This document shows positions 5,823 to 16,101 of a stretch of DNA of 64,000 bases, piece after piece. Numbering within the stretch: the first letter of the stretch is position 1; each line of letters starts with the position of its first letter. The notes under the pieces are model-generated. The model had not been told where the DNA came from. It saw nothing but the letters and a program-made list of their open reading frames with translations, and made no database searches. Origin of the DNA: Trypanosoma brucei. Taxonomy: Eukaryota. Both the position numbers and the translations under genes were made by a program. Where the stretch lies: positions 448,001 to 512,000 of the forward strand of contig CH464491.1 of the NCBI GenBank assembly GCA_000002445.1, written 5' to 3'.

Positions 5823-7010
5823 CTATTTTCTCAGTGGTCGAATAAGCCATCTAGGGTCTGAAATGTCCGAGAGAGGGCACACACCACTAAGTTTCATATA
5901 CCGGCGTGCGCCCCACACAGTGTGGACTTCTACAGAGCTATTCTCCAATAGACGTCTGTAGGCATTTTTCTGTTGGAAGGAAGAATCTCGAAGGGCTCTA
6001 AACCAACTTGTTTGGTTGAGATATTTGGGCATCAGGTTCCTCCACGCACTAATTGAGGTTGGGAAGTGCAAAACCACGCCACTTTCGACCGAAACACTGT
6101 GGGGATAATGAAAAAAACGCGTCTCGTAATCGAGGGATATAATTCCCCTTCGCAGCAGTAATTTTGGCTTCACATGCTTCGGCCTACTGACGCTCCATGT
6201 CAACACTATAGTCCACATAGTTTGATCACATAGCCAAATAAGGCTCTGGCGTCTCAAATTAAAGAAAACTTTCAAAGCCTCTTTTAGCGCCCACACTCTG
6301 GCTATCACGCCTCCGCCATTAAGATACGACCTTCCCGATTCATTTACCCTTAAAATATTTTCAACTCCCACACCCCTTGTTGCATCCATTGCGTCATCAA
6401 ACAACTTCTTACAGTTTTGAAACTCCGACCTCCCCTCCGGCTTCACCATGATATTCAGCTGAGGAGTAGCGCAACCCTTCTCAGCGGTAAACAACATTGG
6501 AGGTGTCATTTCTCCTCTTAAAATAGCCGTCTCGTTGAACGCTTCAGGGATTTTTGGTGTAGTGTCGAGGAAATGCTTCACTGCCTCCTCCCTAACACCT
6601 GCATCGGTGAAATAGGTATCTCCCCCATCGAACAACATAATCACATCACTTTCGCGCATCTTCTCACGCACCATGTAACTATAAATCCAGTCCCACCTCT
6701 TCACATGCCCATACCAGCCTCCCATGCCCAGTGTCGCAACCGATGCATTAGTGAGTATAGAACTTACAATCATCCTGCACCACCCCGGAGAGTACCTCGT
6801 GTGCACCACAGCATAATACACCCTCGGCGTATAATTTCTACCACTGTCTTTCTTTCTTAACAACGTCCCTGTTTCCTTGTTCCTCACGCTCATTTCTCCC
6901 AAAAACCAGAGCACAGTTAGCAGCATCACCCCCACCATCGCGGCATATAGTCTTCCCCTTGTGCCCCCATAAATTGCCCTAGCCCCTTTCAACATATAAA
7001 AACTTCGCAA
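5823..7010 (-). CDS. Type II membrane protein, putative glycosyltransferase (LH3/PLOD N-terminal GT-like), tandem paralogue 1
   Basis: 395-aa ORF with an N-terminal hydrophobic anchor (LYAAMVGVMLLTVLWFLG). The motif series TLGMGGWYGHVKRW / DVIMLFDGGDTYF / MLFTAEKGC / YLNGGGVIARVW is colinear, from memory, with TLGLGEEW / MIIMFVDSYDVI / LLFSAESFC / FLNSGGFIGF of lysyl-hydroxylase-type GT domains. Alignment to the paralogue suggests the true start is Met6 (6995). Confidence 0.8.
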   Translation of the reverse strand: MRSFYMLKGARAIYGGTRGRLYAAMVGVMLLTVLWFLGEMSVRNKETGTLLRKKDSGRNYTPRVYYAVVHTRYSPGWCRMIVSSILTNASVATLGMGGWYGHVKRWDWIYSYMVREKMRESDVIMLFDGGDTYFTDAGVREEAVKHFLDTTPKIPEAFNETAILRGEMTPPMLFTAEKGCATPQLNIMVKPEGRSEFQNCKKLFDDAMDATRGVGVENILRVNESGRSYLNGGGVIARVWALKEALKVFFNLRRQSLIWLCDQTMWTIVLTWSVSRPKHVKPKLLLRRGIISLDYETRFFHYPHSVSVESGVVLHFPTSISAWRNLMPKYLNQTSWFRALRDSSFQQKNAYRRLLENSSVEVHTVWGARRYMKLSGVCPLSDISDPRWLIRPLRK

Positions 7011-7128
7011 AAAAAAAATGGATTTACTTGGAGAAGGGTGATGCTTTTCCCCTCAACTCGGACACAGTGCGGATGCGTTTTTTTTTTTTTTAACTCTGGC
7101 GAACGGTTCGTAAAAATTCCGTGCGATG

Positions 7129-8292
7129 TTACTTTTTCAACTGCCCACTGAGCCAACTGGGGTCGGAGATGTTAGATATGGGGCATACGGTACTTAACTT
7201 AGCGTCTTTGCGGGAACCCCAGAAAGTGTACATCTCCACAGTGGAATTTTTCAGCAAACGAATGGAGGCCTCCCGCTTGGGGGAAGAATTGCTCAGTGCT
7301 CTATACCAATTTATCTCACTCAGATACTGTGGCAATGTACGCTTCCACACGTGAACTGGTCCCGCAAAATGCAGTATCATTCCACTCATAACCATCGTCT
7401 TGGATGGATAAAGGAAGTAACGCGTCTCATAGTCAAGAGATATTAGCCCCCTTCTCACCAACAGCGCTGGCTTTATATTCTCCGGCCTGGTGATACTCCA
7501 TATTAGCAAGAGTGCCCACATTGACTGGTCGCAACCCCAAACAAACTTTTTTTTTCTGAGGTTAAAGAATGCCTTCAGAGCCTCTTCTAGTGCCCACACC
7601 CTGGCAATTATTCCTCCCCCGTTGAGATACGATCTTCCCGATTCATTCGCCCTTAAAATAGAACGCAACCCTGTGCGATTGGAAACTACGAACGCCTCGT
7701 TGTACAGTTTACTGCACTGATGAGCGCGCTCGCTCTTAGGTGTCTTTACCATGAAATGACTTTGAGGGGTGAAACAGAAATTTTCGGCGGCCATCAACAT
7801 TGGAGGTGTCATTTCCCCTCTTAAAATAGCCGTCTCGTTAAACGCTTCAGGGATTTTTGGTGTAGTGTCGAGGAAATGCTTCACTGCCTCCTCCCTTACA
7901 TCCTCCCCTGTGAAGACCGTATCGCCCCCATCAAATATCACAATCACGTCACCCTCACTCATCTTCTTCTGCCGTAGGTACCGGTACAACCACAACCACC
8001 TGCTCACATGCCCATACCAGCCTCCCATGCCCACTGTGGCAACGCTCACATTAGTGAGTATCGAACTTACAATCATCCTGCACCACCCCGGCGCGTACCT
8101 CGTTTCTGCAACAAGAAAAAACACCCTTGGTATGTGATTACCGTAACTTCCATCCTTCTTCCCCTCCACGCTAGTTTCCCCACTCCCTACATTTCTTAAC
8201 CCCAACCACCAAAAAAATAACATCAGCACCAACCCCATAACATACAACCTGCCCCTTGAATCCCCATAGAATTCCCTAACACCTTTCAGCAT
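7129..8292 (-). CDS. Type II membrane protein, putative glycosyltransferase (LH3/PLOD N-terminal GT-like), tandem paralogue 2
   Basis: 387-aa ORF with an N-terminal anchor (LYVMGLVLMLFFWWLGL). It carries the same motif series as 5823..7010, with identical blocks such as KHFLDTTPKIPEAFNETAILRGEMTPPML and WCRMIVSSILTN. Confidence 0.8.
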   Translation of the reverse strand: MLKGVREFYGDSRGRLYVMGLVLMLFFWWLGLRNVGSGETSVEGKKDGSYGNHIPRVFFLVAETRYAPGWCRMIVSSILTNVSVATVGMGGWYGHVSRWLWLYRYLRQKKMSEGDVIVIFDGGDTVFTGEDVREEAVKHFLDTTPKIPEAFNETAILRGEMTPPMLMAAENFCFTPQSHFMVKTPKSERAHQCSKLYNEAFVVSNRTGLRSILRANESGRSYLNGGGIIARVWALEEALKAFFNLRKKKFVWGCDQSMWALLLIWSITRPENIKPALLVRRGLISLDYETRYFLYPSKTMVMSGMILHFAGPVHVWKRTLPQYLSEINWYRALSNSSPKREASIRLLKNSTVEMYTFWGSRKDAKLSTVCPISNISDPSWLSGQLKK

Positions 8293-8462
8293 ACAAACAG
8301 ATGTCTCTAAGAAATAAAAGGGTACGCACCCAGTGAGTGGACAACTACACGTTAAATCAAGGGAAACGAATAGTTAATGTTAAACATTAGTTTCCCAACA
8401 GTTAAGGCATGTAAATCCGGCACACCACAACACCAAAAACACATAAATATGTGCAACACCGA

Positions 8463-8526
8463 TTATCTCGGGATGCTGATGCTCCCACTCGCCTACATAT
8501 GAAGGCAGTGGGTCTCAATGCATACC
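8463..8526 (-). ncRNA. H/ACA-like (AGA-box) snoRNA candidate 2, copy 1
   Basis: Repeat copy of 9454..9517 (offset -991). ttatctcg at 8463-8470. This is the first element inside the array. Confidence 0.55.
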
Positions 8527-8617
8527 TCGTTAAATGTGAACCCAACGATAACGATATTCTGTGGGACAGATTCAAATAGATGAGACAACAGAGTAGTGTG
8601 CAGGCATTCAATACGTA

Positions 8618-8723
8618 CAACAGTCAGACCTGTTGAGTTTGATTTAGTATTCAATAAGCGCGCTCATAAAGTAAGGCATATTGACCTTCACGTACACATA
8701 ATCGTTGTTTCCATCACACTGCC
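8618..8723 (-). ncRNA. C/D box snoRNA candidate B, copy 1
   Basis: Repeat copy of 9609..9714 (offset -991). D box complement tcag at 8624-8627. Confidence 0.5.
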
Positions 8724-8966
8724 GCGTCTGTTGTGCATTCCCCCCATTTTCTTATCCACCTTCCCACCCAGATACCACAAACAAACCGCATGATCTCTCT
8801 TACACTTTCGAGCCAATACCGTCACCGAAAGTATACTGACAGGCAGCCAGACAGGGTAAGATTTGGTTCTAATGACATAATGCTGCGTAGAGCAAAGGTA
8901 GTGGGGGGGGGGAAAAAAAAGGATGTGGAGAGGGATGGAGGAAGGAAGGGAACGAGCTGCATAGCA

Positions 8967-9070
8967 GGCCATTGCTCAGCCGAAAGGTGATTTTTGATGT
9001 TCCGTTATCAATGCATCGCTCAAACTGTTTGGACCTCGAACAACAATTATGCATCACAGCATCAGTGGCC
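8967..9070 (-). ncRNA. C/D box snoRNA candidate C, copy 1
   Basis: Repeat copy of 9957..10060 (offset -990). ggcc starts at 8967. Confidence 0.4.
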
Positions 9071-9195
9071 AAAAAGAAAACTAGTAGCACACATATACAC
9101 ACACACGAACATAAACATAAACATAAACATAAACAGGGATGAATGACCTATGAGGAAGAGGGTGGATAAAAACAAAATAATAAGGATGGATGATA

Positions 9196-9290
9196 CTCGA
9201 TTCAGTGTGAGCTGAGTTAAAAATTATGTCTTCAAAATGGCTCTACTGCCGTCAGGCTGACAGGAAACTATTGACTGTCATCATTAGAGG
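9196..9290 (-). ncRNA. C/D box snoRNA candidate A (guide to conserved LSU rRNA GUGA*GCUGGGUU)
   Basis: Minus strand: CCUCUA-AUGAUGA(C box, 9278-9284)-22 nt-CUGA(D')-17 nt-UGAAGA(C')-23 nt-CUGA(D box, 9202-9205)-AUCGAG. The flanks CUC/GAG can pair. The 12 nt upstream of D (AACUCAGCUCAC) pair with LSU rRNA GUGAGCUGGGUU, including one G.U. Confidence 0.75.
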
Positions 9291-9325
9291 GGAAGATAAT
9301 GCATTTGAGTGCCAAAACTACAAAT

Positions 9326-9400
9326 GGCTCTCGCGCAACAGGACAGGGGCCACATCCCCACGGCATTAAATGGTTGCCACTGGCCCAAGGGATGCTGCGC
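9326..9400 (-). ncRNA. H/ACA-like (AGA-box, single-hairpin) snoRNA candidate 1
   Basis: Minus strand, 75 nt. Lower stem GCGCAGCA/UGUUGCGC (8 bp, one G.U). Pocket UCCCUU / CUGUCC. Upper stem GGGCCA/UGGCCC (6 bp) with a 28-nt apical region containing GGCA/UGCC. The hairpin is followed by G-AGA-GCC. AGA lies 15 nt from the top of the pocket and 3 nt from the predicted 3' end. Confidence 0.6.
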
Positions 9401-9453
9401 TGTATTGTTTCAACAGCACATAAGCAAAAACACATAAATATGTGCAACACCGA

Positions 9454-9517
9454 TTATCTCGGGATGCTGATGCTCCCACTCGCCTACATATGAAGGCAGT
9501 GGGTCTCAATGCATACC
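9454..9517 (-). ncRNA. H/ACA-like (AGA-box) snoRNA candidate 2
   Basis: Minus strand, 64 nt. Lower stem GG(U)AUGC/GCAUCC. Pocket AUUGAGA / AGCAUCA. Upper stem CCCACUGCC/GGC(G)AGUGGG (9 bp, one bulge) with a 10-nt loop. The hairpin is followed by CG-AGA-UAA. AGA lies 15 nt from the top of the pocket and 3 nt from the predicted 3' end. Confidence 0.55.
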
Positions 9518-9608
9518 TCGTTAAATGTGAACCCAACGATAACGATATTCTGTGGGACAGATTCAAGTAGATGAGACAACAGAGTAGTGTGCAGGCATTC
9601 GATACGTA

Positions 9609-9714
9609 CAACAGTCAGACCTGTTGAGTTTGATTTAGTATTCAATAAGCGCGCTCATAAAGTAAGGCATATTGACCTTCACGTACACATAATCGTTGTT
9701 TCCATCACACTGCC
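9609..9714 (-). ncRNA. C/D box snoRNA candidate B (guide to conserved LSU rRNA CCUGUUGAG)
   Basis: Minus strand: GGCAG-U-GUGAUGG(C-like box, 9702-9708)...UUGAAUA(C'-like)...CUCAACAGGU-CUGA(D box, 9615-9618)-CUGUU. The 5-bp terminal stem GGCAG/CUGUU has two G.U pairs. Guide positions 2-10 upstream of D pair perfectly with CCUGUUGAG of the conserved LSU motif GACCCUGUUGAGCUUGAC. Looser complementarity continues to ~22 nt. Confidence 0.5.
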
Positions 9715-9956
9715 GCGTCTGTTGTGCATTCCCCCCATTTTCTTATCCACCTTCCCACCCAGATACCACAAACAAACCGCACGATCTCTCTTACACTTTC
9801 GAGCCAATACCGTCACCGAAAGTATACTGACAGACAGCCAGACAGGGTAAGATTTGGTTCTAATGACATAATGCTGCGTAGAGCAAAGGTAGTGGGGGGG
9901 GGAAAAAAAAGGATGTGGAGAGGGATGGAGGAAGGAAGGGAACGAGCTGCATAGCA

Positions 9957-10179: not shown

Positions 10180-10274
10180 CTCGATTCAGTGTGAGCTGAG
10201 TTAAAAATTATGTCTTCAAAATGGCTCTACTGCCGTCAGGCTGACAGGAAACTATTGACTGTCATCATTAGAGG
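10180..10274 (-). ncRNA. C/D box snoRNA candidate A, copy 2
   Basis: Repeat copy of 9196..9290 (offset +984). C box complement tcatcat at 10262-10268. The sequence appears identical. Confidence 0.75.
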
Positions 10275-11166: not shown

Positions 11167-11261
11167 CTCGATTCAGTGTGAGCTGAGTTAAAAATTATGT
11201 CTTCAAAATGGCTCTACTGCCGTCAGGCTGACAGGAAACTATTGACTGTCATCATTAGAGG
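11167..11261 (-). ncRNA. C/D box snoRNA candidate A, copy 3
   Basis: Repeat copy (offset +1971). D box complement tcag at 11173-11176. Confidence 0.75.
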
Positions 11262-12030: not shown

Positions 12031-12155
12031 AAAAAGAAAACTAGTAGCACACATATACACACACACGAACATAAACATAAACATAAACATAAACAGGGAT
12101 GAATGACCTATGAGGAAGAGGGTGGATAAAAACAAAATAATAAGGATGGATGATA

Positions 12156-12250
12156 CTCGATTCAGTGTGAGCTGAGTTAAAAATTATGTCTTCAAAATGG
12201 CTCTACTGCCGTCAGGCTGACAGGAAACTATTGACTGTCATCATTAGAGG
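12156..12250 (-). ncRNA. C/D box snoRNA candidate A, copy 4
   Basis: Repeat copy (offset +2960). D box complement tcag at 12162-12165. Confidence 0.75.
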
Positions 12251-13019: not shown

Positions 13020-13144
13020 AAAAAGAAAACTAGTAGCACACATATACACACACACGAACATAAACATAAACATAAACATAAACAGGGATGAATGACCTAT
13101 GAGGAAGAGGGTGGATAAAAACAAAATAATAAGGATGGATGATA

Positions 13145-13239
13145 CTCGATTCAGTGTGAGCTGAGTTAAAAATTATGTCTTCAAAATGGCTCTACTGCCG
13201 TCAGGCTGACAGGAAACTATTGACTGTCATCATTAGAGG
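13145..13239 (-). ncRNA. C/D box snoRNA candidate A, copy 5
   Basis: Repeat copy (offset +3949). D box complement tcag at 13151-13154. Confidence 0.75.
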
Positions 13240-13466: not shown

Positions 13467-14826
13467 TCGTTAAATGTGAACCCAACGATAACGATATTCT
13501 GTGGGACAGATTCAAATAGATGAGACAACAGAGTAGTGTGCAGGCATTCAATACGTACAACAGTCAGACCTGTTGAGTTTGATTTAGTATTCAATAAGCG
13601 CGCTCTTTTTTTTTGGGAGAGGGTTACTTCTATTTGCTATATTATTTTTCTTGAACTGCAATGCCTTGCGTGAAGAAAATTATGAGGTGAAAAAAAAAGG
13701 TGTCAAGTTTTTGCTGTTATGGAATTGGTTTTTTTAATGCTTACTTGCTAAACTTTTTTTTTTTGGAGCAGAAGTGTTTACACATTTTCTTTTTTTCAAC
13801 TCATCATCCTGTCTTCCATTTTGTTATGTAACTGATCTTTATACAAATAAGAATGGATATTTGCAATGGAGAACGTATCGGTAGGATGGATGTGAGTTCT
13901 GACCCTTTATTCTGTGATCAGTTGTGGGATTTGCAATATATCTCTCGTGCGTTTTTTTAGAAAAAATATACCAAAGGATGAACAACTTAATGGTAAACGT
14001 TGGATCTTTTCTGCCGAATTTTTTCTTTCTTTTCTTCCATAACTTTTTTTTCTTGGAAGGTGGTTCTTTTCTTAACTTCTACCAAAGCATCGCCGCGTTA
14101 TGCAGTGCAAAGAGGCGAGTTTTTTTTATGTCGATCGAACCACCCTTTAAAAACAAGCAAAACCACGGATACGTAAACGTGTTAATGAGGTTGAGTGATA
14201 GCTTTTGTGACCAATCACCTCACGTGTGGTAACGGTAAGTAAAACAAAACGATGTAAAATGCGGCAAGGCAACAACGCATATGCGCAGTCACTTATATAC
14301 GAACAAATAACGAAATGACATATATATAATGGCAATTCATAAAAAGTGAGAGTAACCATGCCTTTGCAGTTGTGGAATCGTTGTTTTCCCTATTTCATCG
14401 ATTCCCTTGGTGGTTTGCCTTCATATGAAGCTGTGTCGGGCGCTTTCGACATACCCATCAATGCAACAATTCAAACTTGCACTCAGTCACTTTTTCCTTT
14501 TCCCCGTATCGGCGTGAGCTCTACGCTATTTCTCCTCCACTCTGTAGATATTGAGACGCTTGAACGATAACGTATATGAAATGCCCAGCAGTTGCAACCG
14601 CAAGCTTACACATGGATCACTGGACCTTTCCCATGCATAAAGCTAAATGCCATCTCCGAGGCAAGGCAAGAGAGTCGTGAAATACATGATCAAACGAAAA
14701 AATACGAAATGAGGCGACAAACGGCGGACTTCGCTCCGCCCAATAACTCAAATAAATAACACGCACCATATCCTGATTGCTTTACATAACATCCATCTCG
14801 CCACCCCTCGTCAGAACAAACAATTC

Positions 14827-16101
14827 TTAAAGACTGTTGATCAAATCTTTCGTAATGTTCTTGTGATGTGCCTCGAGTGTGCCGCCGCCGATCTCAAGCA
14901 ACTTCGCATCCCGCCACAGCCGCTCCACCGGCATATCACGCGCATATCCCATACCACCCATAACTTGCATGGCGTTGTCAGCCGCCCGCTTCGCAACAGG
15001 CGCTGCAAACAATTTTACCGCATCGCTCCCCAGGCGGTTGCAATTTCCTGGCGCCACACTCCTGCTTACAGCATATGTAAGTGATTTGGCCGCCTCCGTT
15101 TCTGCAAACGTCTCGGCAATGTAGCGCTGAATCTGTCCATAATTCCAAATGTGTTTACCAAACGTCTTACGCTCATTGGCATAACACGTCATGAGTTCCA
15201 CGCAACGATCAGCAATACCCACCGCCATTGCGGCCAATGTGAGACGCTCAACCTCCAGGTTACGCATCATTGCCACAAGCCCTTTCCCTTCAGTGCCGAG
15301 CAGATTCTCCTCTCCAAGCACCACATTATCGAAGAAAAGTTGACACATGTGAGACCCACGCATGCCGCACTTGTCAATCTTCTTCCCCACAGAAAACCCC
15401 GATGCACCCTTCTCTACAACGAACGCGGTGATTTTGCCGTCAACCTTTGCATACACAAGAACAAGGTCAGCAACGGTACCATTTGTCACCCACGTCTTGC
15501 CACCGTTAAGAATATACTTTCCATTACTTTCTTTTGTCGCAGTGGTCAGCATACCAAGAACATCTGTACCCGCACCGGGTTCCGACATGCCCATTGCACC
15601 TATGTGCTCGCCTGTAAGCACTTTGGGGAGCCACCGCTCCCGTTGTGCCGCTGTGGAAGCATGATAGAAGTTGTTCACAAAAAGCATCGAGTGAGCCAAG
15701 TAGGCGAGACAAAAGCCTGGATCCACTTTGGAAAGCTCGTGGTGGATAACAACCGCTGCCGTGGCGTCCATTCCAGCACCACCGTCTCCCTCAGGAATGG
15801 TTACACCGAGTACACCAAGGTCACCCAACTCGCGTAGGAGATCAACATTAAAATGCATGTCAATATCGCTCTGTTTTGCCTGCGTTTCAACCCGCTCCGC
15901 TGCGAATCTTTGAACCGTTTCACGCAGCATCTTGTGTTCAGGTGTTGGGTTTAAAAGATAATCCAAGTTAACGGTCGTCGAAGGAGAGAAAAAACGGAGA
16001 CCACATGGTGCTACCAGCGCAGTGTAGTGTCGTCTAATAGACGCTAAACGATACGAGCGCATGCTCAACAGGGGGAAATGAAACAAAACGCTCAAATTCA
16101 A
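14827..16101 (-). CDS. IVD: Isovaleryl-CoA dehydrogenase (acyl-CoA dehydrogenase family), mitochondrial
   Basis: 424-aa ORF with ACAD signatures GMSEPGAGTD and GGKTWVTNG. It has the IVD-type arrangement: Glu in NLEVERLTLA (compare DLERLVLA) and EIGGGTLEAH (compare YEIGAGTSEV). An Arg-rich presequence suggests the real start may be Met14 (16062). Confidence 0.85.
   Translation of the reverse strand: MNLSVLFHFPLLSMRSYRLASIRRHYTALVAPCGLRFFSPSTTVNLDYLLNPTPEHKMLRETVQRFAAERVETQAKQSDIDMHFNVDLLRELGDLGVLGVTIPEGDGGAGMDATAAVVIHHELSKVDPGFCLAYLAHSMLFVNNFYHASTAAQRERWLPKVLTGEHIGAMGMSEPGAGTDVLGMLTTATKESNGKYILNGGKTWVTNGTVADLVLVYAKVDGKITAFVVEKGASGFSVGKKIDKCGMRGSHMCQLFFDNVVLGEENLLGTEGKGLVAMMRNLEVERLTLAAMAVGIADRCVELMTCYANERKTFGKHIWNYGQIQRYIAETFAETEAAKSLTYAVSRSVAPGNCNRLGSDAVKLFAAPVAKRAADNAMQVMGGMGYARDMPVERLWRDAKLLEIGGGTLEAHHKNITKDLINSL

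What the first reader, a model, noticed from the sequence alone, without database searches (positions are those of the whole stretch)
9196..9290. C/D candidate A carries a 12-bp guide to a conserved LSU rRNA methylation site (GUGA*GCUGGGUU)
The candidate has a canonical C box (AUGAUGA) and D box (CUGA) 72 nt apart, plus internal D' (CUGA) and C' (UGAAGA) boxes. Positions 2-13 upstream of box D (AACUCAGCUCAC) pair with the conserved eukaryotic LSU sequence GUGAGCUGGGUU, which lies within GGGAACGUGAGCUGGGUUUAGACCGUCGUGAGACAGG. The duplex includes one G.U pair. The +5 rule selects the A of GUGA*GC. Counting from yeast Um2921/Gm2922 in my recalled sequence, this is A2946, a known Nm site. The same count places C2948 and C2959 on C residues, which is a useful self-check. 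The D' guide (CAGUCAAUAGUUUCCUGUCAGC) matched nothing I could recall.
Basis: partly seen in the sequence, partly recalled or inferred. Interest (0 to 1): 0.5.

Follow-up and report, generated by a model that had tools for sequence, protein, structure and literature searches.

The report
Known trypanosome rRNA-methylation guide TB11Cs4C1

Summary
The RNA lies on the minus strand: C box 9284-9278, D' box 9255-9252, C' box 9234-9229 and D box 9205-9202. Five identical copies sit in a ~985-989 bp tandem repeat.

It is not new. The window is Tb927_11_01_v4:448001-512000, and the candidate coincides in position, strand and copy spacing with the annotated C/D snoRNA TB11Cs4C1 (window 9199-9288).

The 12-nt D guide (AACUCAGCUCAC) has one full match (one G.U) in each complete eukaryotic rRNA repeat tested. 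That match puts position +5 on the A of GUGA*GC. Published RiboMeth-seq data assign LSU-beta Am1400 (and Am1388) to TB11Cs4C1. Am1400 corresponds to yeast A2946, the snR71/U29 site.

It is most likely not. Its 12 nt next to D' (GUUUCCUGUCAG) are invariant from Leishmania to T. brucei while the flanking spacers diverge. Its +5 position falls on the A 12 nt upstream, which matches Am1388. The two guides therefore tile 24 contiguous rRNA bases.

I could not obtain a trypanosomatid LSU sequence, so the D' duplex is inferred rather than read.

Verdict: already known, low interest.

The parts
9199..9288 (-). TB11Cs4C1 gene, copy 1 (Tb11_snoRNA_0005); this is the candidate in the finding
   Evidence: PMC3091756 supplementary file 1 gives Tb927_11_01_v4 457199-457288, strand -1. 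The window offset of 448000 was checked against the Rfam H1/H2/H3 coordinates. Sequence read.
9278..9284 (-). C box AUGAUGA
   Evidence: UGAUGA is invariant in the five aligned orthologues.
9257..9268 (-). D' guide GUUUCCUGUCAG (positions 2-13 upstream of D'). The inferred target is LSU-beta 1385-1396, with +5 on A1388.
   Evidence: Invariant in T. brucei, T. conorhini, T. melophagium (both paralogues), T. theileri, L. major and Leptomonas pyrrhocoris, while position 1, position 14 and the 5' spacer vary. Table 2 of PMC9283944 assigns A1388 to TB11Cs4C1.
9252..9255 (-). D' box CUGA (CCGA in L. major)
9229..9234 (-). C' box UGAAGA (UGAGGU in L. major)
9207..9218 (-). D guide AACUCAGCUCAC (positions 2-13 upstream of D). 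It pairs with GUGAGCUGGGUU, with +5 on the A, which is LSU-beta A1400 / yeast A2946.
   Evidence: Single 12-bp match in eukaryotic rRNA. Invariant in four orthologues. Published site assignment; register check.
9202..9205 (-). D box CUGA
10183..10272 (-). TB11Cs4C1 copy 2 (Tb11_snoRNA_0011)
11170..11259 (-). TB11Cs4C1 copy 3 (Tb11_snoRNA_0017)
12159..12248 (-). TB11Cs4C1 copy 4 (Tb11_snoRNA_0023)
13148..13237 (-). TB11Cs4C1 copy 5 (Tb11_snoRNA_0029)

Best explanation
Window 9199-9288 (minus strand) is one of five identical copies of the T. brucei box C/D snoRNA gene TB11Cs4C1. It belongs to the tandemly repeated cluster TB11Cs4, whose order on the transcribed strand is C1-C2-H1-C3-H2-H3.

From established knowledge, I infer that the RNA assembles with the C/D core proteins (NOP1/fibrillarin, NOP56, NOP58, Snu13) and acts as a double guide.

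- The 12 nt upstream of box D pair with LSU-beta 1397-1408 (GUGAGCUGGGUU; 11 Watson-Crick pairs plus one G.U at position 10). This places A1400 at the fifth position, where it is 2'-O-methylated. A1400 is the equivalent of yeast Am2946 / human Am4493, in the 3' strand of helix 90 of the peptidyl-transferase centre.
- The 12 nt upstream of box D' pair with the immediately preceding rRNA segment, 1385-1396. That segment is expected to read CUGACAGGGAAC or a close variant. This places A1388 at the fifth position.

Together the two guides cover 24 contiguous rRNA nucleotides.

What is shown here: the anatomy, the gene identity, the conservation, the D-guide match on eukaryotic LSU sequences, and the register of the published sites.

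What is taken from the literature: both adenosines score as Nm by RiboMeth-seq and are assigned to this snoRNA.

What is inferred: the exact T. brucei sequence at 1385-1396, the protein partners, and that this snoRNA is the only guide for these sites.
For: - **Organism and locus.** Rfam finds TB11Cs4H1/H2/H3 around the candidate. The flanking ESAG protein is 100% identical to a T. b. brucei TREU927 protein on a 5.26-Mb contig.
- **Identity.** The TB11Cs4C1 coordinates in PMC3091756 are 457199, 458183, 459170, 460159 and 461148, strand -1. After subtracting 448000 they equal the five copies found, with the same spacings of 984, 987, 989 and 989.
- **Anatomy.** The boxes and their spacing are as described.
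- **D guide.** It has one 12-bp match in each complete rRNA repeat, and 0.4% of shuffled guides do as well.
- **Published sites.** LSUb_1388 (A; 0.42) and LSUb_1400 (A; 0.77) are both assigned to TB11Cs4C1.
- **Register.** Nine of nine published LSU-beta sites match in nucleotide identity when U1375 is set to the A-loop U. A1388 and A1400 then fall exactly on the two +5 positions.
- **Conservation.** Both 12-nt guides are invariant between Trypanosoma and Leishmania, while the spacers, position 1 of D' and the internal loop diverge.
- **Naming cross-check.** The other two C/D genes in the repeat match the published C2 and C3 coordinates. The C2 gene gives a weak snoZ196/R39/R59 hit, and PMC3542256 pairs TB11Cs4C2 with snR39/U32A.
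Against: - No trypanosomatid LSU rRNA sequence could be retrieved. The D' duplex and the T. brucei copy of the D target were therefore never read directly. The ten eukaryotic LSU loci that show the D' match were selected with a pattern derived from the guide, so they are not independent evidence for the D' pairing.
- In Table 2 of PMC9283944 the A1400 score does not fall when NOP1 is silenced (0.77 to 0.77). The fall at A1388 is not significant (0.42 to 0.23, p = 0.12).
- PMC3542256 lists no T. brucei homologue for the snR71/U29 site.
- No depletion of this particular snoRNA was found in the accessible literature.
- The primary papers (Liang 2005, Rajan 2020) are not held.
Confidence: 0.9

Rival explanations
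1. Single guide with an orphan D' element. Only the D guide acts on rRNA (A1400). The D' spacer has no rRNA target, or it targets another RNA class.
For: The full 22-nt spacer has no continuous complement in the rRNA proxies; pairing stops after 13 nt. A1388 is only about 40% methylated. The authors of PMC9283944 discuss possible non-rRNA targets for other C/D snoRNAs.
Against: The 12 nt next to D' are invariant across six trypanosomatid species while neighbouring positions vary. Their +5 position coincides with a published Nm site assigned to this very snoRNA, 12 nt upstream of A1400.
Confidence: 0.07
2. Mainly a folding chaperone or processing factor. The 24-nt contiguous pairing clamps the helix 90-92 junction during LSU assembly, and methylation is secondary or supplied redundantly by another guide.
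For: A1400 methylation is unchanged after NOP1 silencing. A second, non-methylating base-pairing role was recently proposed for a Leishmania C/D snoRNA (abstract of PMC13487219).
Against: Both guides obey the box+5 rule exactly at two mapped Nm sites. The boxes are canonical. Stable pre-existing rRNA can explain the lack of change after NOP1 silencing. No processing phenotype is known from the material I could read.
Confidence: 0.03
3. A chance constellation of box motifs inside a repeat, not an expressed RNA.
For: Short motifs such as CUGA and UGAUGA are common by chance.
Against: There are five identical copies. Syntenic orthologues keep the boxes and guides but have diverged spacers. The locus is annotated as a snoRNA gene and appears in RiboMeth-seq tables as a guide.
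Confidence: 0

Closest known systems
TB11Cs4C1 (T. brucei C/D snoRNA, Tb11_snoRNA_0005/0011/0017/0023/0029; Liang et al. 2005, Doniger et al. 2010, Rajan et al. 2020/2022)
   Same: It is this gene. Chromosome, strand, coordinates, copy number and copy spacing are identical. The published targets, LSU-beta A1388 and A1400, fit the two guides.
   Different: Nothing differs.
Yeast snR71 / human SNORD29 (U29) / Plasmodium PFS2 / Entamoeba Me-Eh-LSU-A3089
   Same: All guide 2'-O-methylation of the same conserved adenosine: yeast 25S A2946, human 28S A4493.
   Different: There is no detectable sequence homology outside the guide and boxes; no Rfam C/D family matched the candidate at E <= 10. The trypanosomatid RNA also carries a second guide for the A 12 nt upstream. 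From memory, no equivalent methylation is known in yeast or human at that position, but I did not check this. PMC3542256 did not list a T. brucei counterpart.
Other trypanosomatid double-guide C/D snoRNAs with neighbouring targets (for example TB11Cs4C2 at LSU-alpha 916/927 and TB8Cs3C1 at LSU-alpha 1608/1620)
   Same: One snoRNA is assigned two Nm sites 11-12 nt apart. This is the spacing expected when the D' and D guides pair with adjacent rRNA segments.
   Different: The targets differ. I verified the tiling geometry only for TB11Cs4C1, and there only by inference.

Membership tests
Box C/D methylation-guide snoRNA | C box (RUGAUGA) near the 5' end and D box (CUGA) near the 3' end | tested here: met
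   AUGAUGA at 9284-9278 and CUGA at 9205-9202. Both are conserved in orthologues.
Box C/D methylation-guide snoRNA | Internal D' and C' boxes | tested here: met
   CUGA at 9255-9252 and UGAAGA at 9234-9229. The same columns are kept in orthologues, with degenerate CCGA / UGAGGU in L. major.
Box C/D methylation-guide snoRNA | Short terminal stem bringing boxes C and D together | tested here: inconclusive
   Read by eye. T. brucei has CUCUA...AUCGAG (4 bp with one mismatch). T. conorhini and L. major have 3-bp GC stems from different sequence. The stems are short, as is usual in trypanosomatids, and no statistical test was run.
Box C/D methylation-guide snoRNA | At least 10 nt of complementarity to the target, ending next to box D/D', with the modified nucleotide opposite the fifth position | tested here: met
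   D guide: a single 12-bp match on eukaryotic LSU, with +5 on the A of GUGA*GC. D' guide: 12 bp on LSU variants with CUGAYAGGGAAC, but those loci were pattern-selected. The T. brucei rRNA itself was not available.
Box C/D methylation-guide snoRNA | The predicted nucleotide is 2'-O-methylated in vivo | tested here: met
   From the literature only: RiboMeth-seq scores of 0.77 for LSUb_1400 and 0.42 for LSUb_1388, both assigned to TB11Cs4C1. Register confirmed.
Box C/D methylation-guide snoRNA | Methylation depends on this snoRNA and on fibrillarin/NOP1 | not testable with these tools
   NOP1 silencing left A1400 unchanged, and the fall at A1388 was not significant. No snoRNA-specific depletion was found.
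TB11Cs4C1 (named gene) | Same genomic position, strand and copy structure as the annotated gene | tested here: met
   the offset is exactly 448000, with five copies on the minus strand and identical spacings.
Rfam C/D families for the same site (SNORD29/U29, snR71) | Significant covariance-model match | tested here: not met
   No C/D family matched 9196-9290 at E <= 10 in an Rfam 15 scan of 8400-9900. The relation is functional (same target), not demonstrable homology.

The most novel reading that the evidence does not exclude
Because the D' and D guides pair with 24 contiguous nucleotides at the helix 90-92 junction of the peptidyl-transferase centre, the snoRNP might act as a folding clamp or hand-over device during LSU assembly. 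Methylation at A1388 and A1400 would then be sequential read-outs of that binding rather than its main purpose. The stable A1400 score after NOP1 silencing does not exclude this.
Probability: 0.07. Interest if true: 0.4.

Novelty: already known. Interest (0 to 1): 0.08.

Why it matters
It matters little beyond quality control. A tool-free reader correctly recovered a real C/D snoRNA and its conserved target in the peptidyl-transferase centre. The gene, its five copies and both target sites are already in the T. brucei snoRNA catalogue and RiboMeth-seq maps.

Two small additions come from this work:

- An explicit reading of the D' guide as the guide for Am1388. The two guides tile adjacent rRNA segments, and both 12-mers are invariant from Leishmania to Trypanosoma.
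- A side observation that the T. theileri / T. melophagium lineage carries a paralogue whose D box has moved 2 nt. This would retarget methylation to the position of yeast Cm2948.

Tried and rejected
- **Primary papers.** Liang et al. 2005 (tried as PMC1370749 and PMC1370750) and Rajan et al. 2020 (DOI and PMC7549662) are not held.
- **Supplements.** None are held for PMC13487219 or PMC3273796. Those of PMC9283944 and PMC4855143 give no target for this snoRNA and no sequence of the target region.
- **Full-text search** for the guide or target strings found only unrelated primers.
- **Attempts to obtain a kinetoplastid LSU rRNA:**
  - The metagenome scan with GYTGAYRGGRRRYGTGAGCTGGGTT gave four non-kinetoplastid eukaryotic LSUs. 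The leading G in that pattern was a mistake, because position 1 of the D' guide is not conserved.
  - The relaxed pattern gave six eukaryotic rDNA contaminants in bacterial MAGs and nothing in viral contigs.
  - A protein search with a hypothetical spurious ORF across the target returned two unrelated ORFs.
- **One protein search** went to the downstream gene, which turned out to be a T. brucei-only ESAG family member. It confirmed the organism but gave no orthologous loci.
- **No cluster in range.** The T. cruzi (L005, L006), T. vivax (L009), environmental kinetoplastid (L019) and Logan Leishmaniinae (L020) loci contain no TB11Cs4C1 orthologue within reach.
- **Tool failures.** An Rfam call on six loci at once failed internally. 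The first shuffle script timed out.
- **Rejected ideas.** The whole 22-nt D' spacer is not the guide; only 12 nt are conserved. Alternative D' boxes (CUGU) would place +5 on a C, not on a published site.

Full report
**1. What is in the sequence**

The reverse complement of window 9202-9284 reads as follows:

AUGAUGA / CAGUCAAUAGUUUCCUGUCAGC / CUGA / CGGCAGUAGAGCCAUUU / UGAAGA / CAUAAUUUUUAACUCAGCUCACA / CUGA

Box positions in window coordinates are:

| Element | Window coordinates (minus strand) |
|---|---|
| C box | 9284-9278 |
| D' box | 9255-9252 |
| C' box | 9234-9229 |
| D box | 9205-9202 |

The 83-nt core occurs five times without a single mismatch, at 9202, 10186, 11173, 12162 and 13151, all on the minus strand. 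No shuffle produced a match.

**2. Where it sits**

Rfam places TB11Cs4H1, H2 and H3, the trypanosomatid H/ACA snoRNAs of cluster TB11Cs4, on the minus strand throughout 8.4-13.5 kb, with a period of about 985-989 bp. No Rfam family matches the candidate itself, even at E <= 10.

The gene just downstream, 7129-8292 (minus strand), is 100% identical to an ESAG protein of T. brucei brucei TREU927 on a 5,261,801-bp contig. The gene upstream, 14827-16101 (minus strand), is isovaleryl-CoA dehydrogenase.

**3. Identity**

Supplementary file 1 of Doniger et al. 2010 (PMC3091756) lists TB11Cs4C1 as a C/D snoRNA on Tb927_11_01_v4, strand -1. Its five copies are at:

- 457199-457288
- 458183-458272
- 459170-459259
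- 460159-460248
- 461148-461237

Subtracting 448000 reproduces the Rfam coordinates of H1, H2 and H3. For example, H3 at 457326 becomes 9326. The same offset puts TB11Cs4C1 at window 9199-9288, 10183-10272, 11170-11259, 12159-12248 and 13148-13237. These are the five copies found, with identical spacings of 984, 987, 989 and 989.

The other two C/D genes in the repeat also match the table: C2 at 8973-9069 and C3 at 9612-9712. The C2 gene gives a weak snoZ196/R39/R59 hit. That agrees with PMC3542256, which pairs TB11Cs4C2 with snR39/U32A.

The candidate is therefore the known gene TB11Cs4C1.

**4. The D guide**

Positions 2-13 upstream of box D are AACUCAGCUCAC. They have exactly one 12-bp match (11 Watson-Crick pairs plus one G.U at position 10) in each of two complete eukaryotic SSU-5.8S-LSU repeats obtained from metagenome and MAG contigs, L004 and L016. 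The match is at GUGAGCUGGGUU, and position 5 lies opposite the A. Only 18-21 of 5000 shuffled guides find any such match. The same target string is present in all ten eukaryotic LSU loci fetched.

**5. The published sites**

Table 2 of Rajan et al. 2022 (PMC9283944) gives RiboMeth-seq stoichiometry in procyclic T. brucei. It assigns two sites to TB11Cs4C1:

| Site | Nucleotide | Control | CBF5 silenced | NOP1 silenced |
|---|---|---|---|---|
| LSUb_1388 | A | 0.42 | 0.27 | 0.23 |
| LSUb_1400 | A | 0.77 | 0.57 | 0.77 |

To connect these numbers to the sequence, I threaded the nine published LSU-beta sites between 1245 and 1435 onto nine unrelated eukaryotic LSU sequences. The sites are G1245, G1247, C1264, G1269, U1375, A1388, A1400, C1413 and U1435. 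I set U1375 to the A-loop U of GGAUUGUUCACC. All nine nucleotide identities match in every sequence long enough to test.

In that register, A1400 is the A of GUGA*GC, 25 nt after the A-loop U. A1388 is the A 13 nt after it.

From memory, the yeast Nm sites G2791, G2793, G2815, U2921, A2946 and C2959 lie at a constant offset of 1546 from six of these sites. PMC3542256 independently gives 25S A2946 / 28S A4493 as the snR71/U29 site, and G2815 (snR38) as the TB11Cs1C2 site.

**6. The D' guide**

Comparative data show that only part of it is a guide.

I used the isovaleryl-CoA dehydrogenase orthologues as anchors to fetch syntenic loci. Rfam finds TB11Cs4 H/ACA members in the T. theileri and L. 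major loci. Orthologues of TB11Cs4C1 are present in:

- T. conorhini
- T. melophagium (two paralogues)
- T. theileri (truncated by the assembly)
- L. major (nine copies)
- Leptomonas pyrrhocoris (interrupted by an assembly gap)

In the alignment of the five full-length sequences, three blocks are invariant or nearly so:

- the boxes;
- the 12 nt GUUUCCUGUCAG at positions 2-13 upstream of D';
- the D guide AAC(U/C)CAGCUC...

By contrast, position 1 upstream of D' varies (C, C, A, A, U; also A in the T. theileri and Leptomonas copies). Position 14, the 5' part of the spacer, the D'-C' loop and the flanks also diverge.

By the +5 rule, the U at position 5 selects an A in a target of the form CUGA*CAGG(A/G)AAC. 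If that segment lies directly 5' of the D-guide target, the two modified adenosines are exactly 12 nt apart. This is the published spacing (1388 and 1400), and both sites are A.

Eukaryotic LSU variants with CUGA(C/U)AGGGAAC at this position do exist. On the CUGACAGGGAAC type the D' duplex has 11 Watson-Crick pairs and one G.U, with a duplex energy of -21.0 kcal/mol. The D duplex scores -20.9 kcal/mol.

These loci were retrieved with a pattern derived from the guide. They show that the pairing is plausible, but they are not independent proof.

I could not obtain a trypanosomatid LSU sequence by any route available. The T. brucei sequence at 1385-1396 remains an inference, supported by the published assignment of A1388 to this snoRNA.

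**7. Mechanism**

TB11Cs4C1 is a double-guide C/D snoRNA whose D' and D guides tile 24 contiguous nucleotides, LSU-beta 1385-1408. This stretch spans the linker after the A-loop helix (H92) and the 3' strand of helix 90. That helix assignment is by E. coli numbering worked out from memory, giving A2565 and A2577.

The D site is the pan-eukaryotic Am (snR71/U29). The D' site is sub-stoichiometric at 0.42. From memory, it has no counterpart in yeast or human.

Eleven- to 12-nt spacing of two sites assigned to one snoRNA recurs in the same table: TB11Cs4C2 at LSU-alpha 916/927 and TB8Cs3C1 at LSU-alpha 1608/1620. Adjacent tiling therefore looks like a common trypanosomatid arrangement rather than a peculiarity of this RNA.

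Whether one snoRNP can engage both segments at once is not addressed by any data here. Sequential or independent binding is the conservative assumption.

**8. Caveats**

- A1400 does not drop on NOP1 silencing, and the drop at A1388 is not significant. This is compatible with stable pre-existing ribosomes, but it means that fibrillarin dependence is not shown for these sites in that data set.
- PMC3542256 lists no T. brucei homologue for the snR71/U29 site. This conflicts with the later table and is probably an omission.
- No snoRNA-specific knock-down was found in the accessible literature.

**9. Verdict**

The D' guide changes from orphan to the probable guide for Am1388. The feature is an already catalogued gene with already mapped targets, so novelty is nil and interest is low.

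Noticed in passing
L010 13743-13820, 14878-14955, 16001-16078, 17132-17208 (T. melophagium); L007 about 13911-13975 (T. theileri, truncated): These loci carry a paralogue of TB11Cs4C1 with the same D' guide but the D guide AAACCCAGCUC-U-CUGA. Box D lies 2 nt closer, so +5 falls on the C two nt 3' of the A. That is the position of yeast Cm2948, or LSU-beta 1402, which is not listed as methylated in T. brucei. The U that makes the G.U pair is replaced by C. This looks like retargeting by a 2-nt deletion after duplication.
   Followed up: partly
L008 16203-20706 (L. major, FR796423.1): The TB11Cs4C1 orthologue is present in nine copies, with alternating spacing of about 474 and 600 nt. It has a non-canonical D' box (CCGA) and C' box (UGAGGU). 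The locus gives H1 and H2 hits but no TB11Cs4H3 hit.
   Followed up: partly
window 8973-9069 (-) and 9612-9712 (-): The two other C/D genes of the repeat are TB11Cs4C2 and TB11Cs4C3. TB11Cs4C2 gives a weak Rfam snoZ196/R39/R59 hit, and its D guide puts +5 on an A in GAA*AGGUGA. The TB11Cs4C3 D guide puts +5 on the G of CCUG*UUGAG, which fits the published LSU-beta U672/G673.
   Followed up: partly
window 9108-9135, 12068-12095, 13057-13084: An (AACATA)x4.7 microsatellite lies between C1 and C2 in three of the five repeats only, which accounts for part of the 984-989 bp length variation. H1 copies also differ slightly between repeats (77.8-82.5 bits), whereas the C1 copies are identical.
   Followed up: no
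window 5823-8292 (-); loci L007, L008, L010, L011, L012: In T. brucei the snoRNA cluster directly follows the isovaleryl-CoA dehydrogenase gene and is followed by two ESAG-like genes found only in T. brucei. In T. theileri, T. melophagium, T. conorhini, L. major and Leptomonas, a DUF1295 gene lies directly downstream of the dehydrogenase gene; where the cluster orientation is clear (T. theileri, T. melophagium, T. conorhini, L. major), that gene sits between the dehydrogenase gene and the cluster. In T. cruzi, RHS genes occupy the position and no cluster is in range.
   Followed up: no
L013-L018 (GTDB MAG contigs): Six contigs filed under bacterial MAGs (Proteobacteria, Bacteroidetes, Patescibacteria, Curvibacter, Desulfobacterales, Desulfobacterota) carry the eukaryote-type LSU rRNA target region. 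For the two that I scanned with Rfam (L014, L016), eukaryotic rRNA genes were confirmed. These look like mis-binned eukaryotic contamination.
   Followed up: partly
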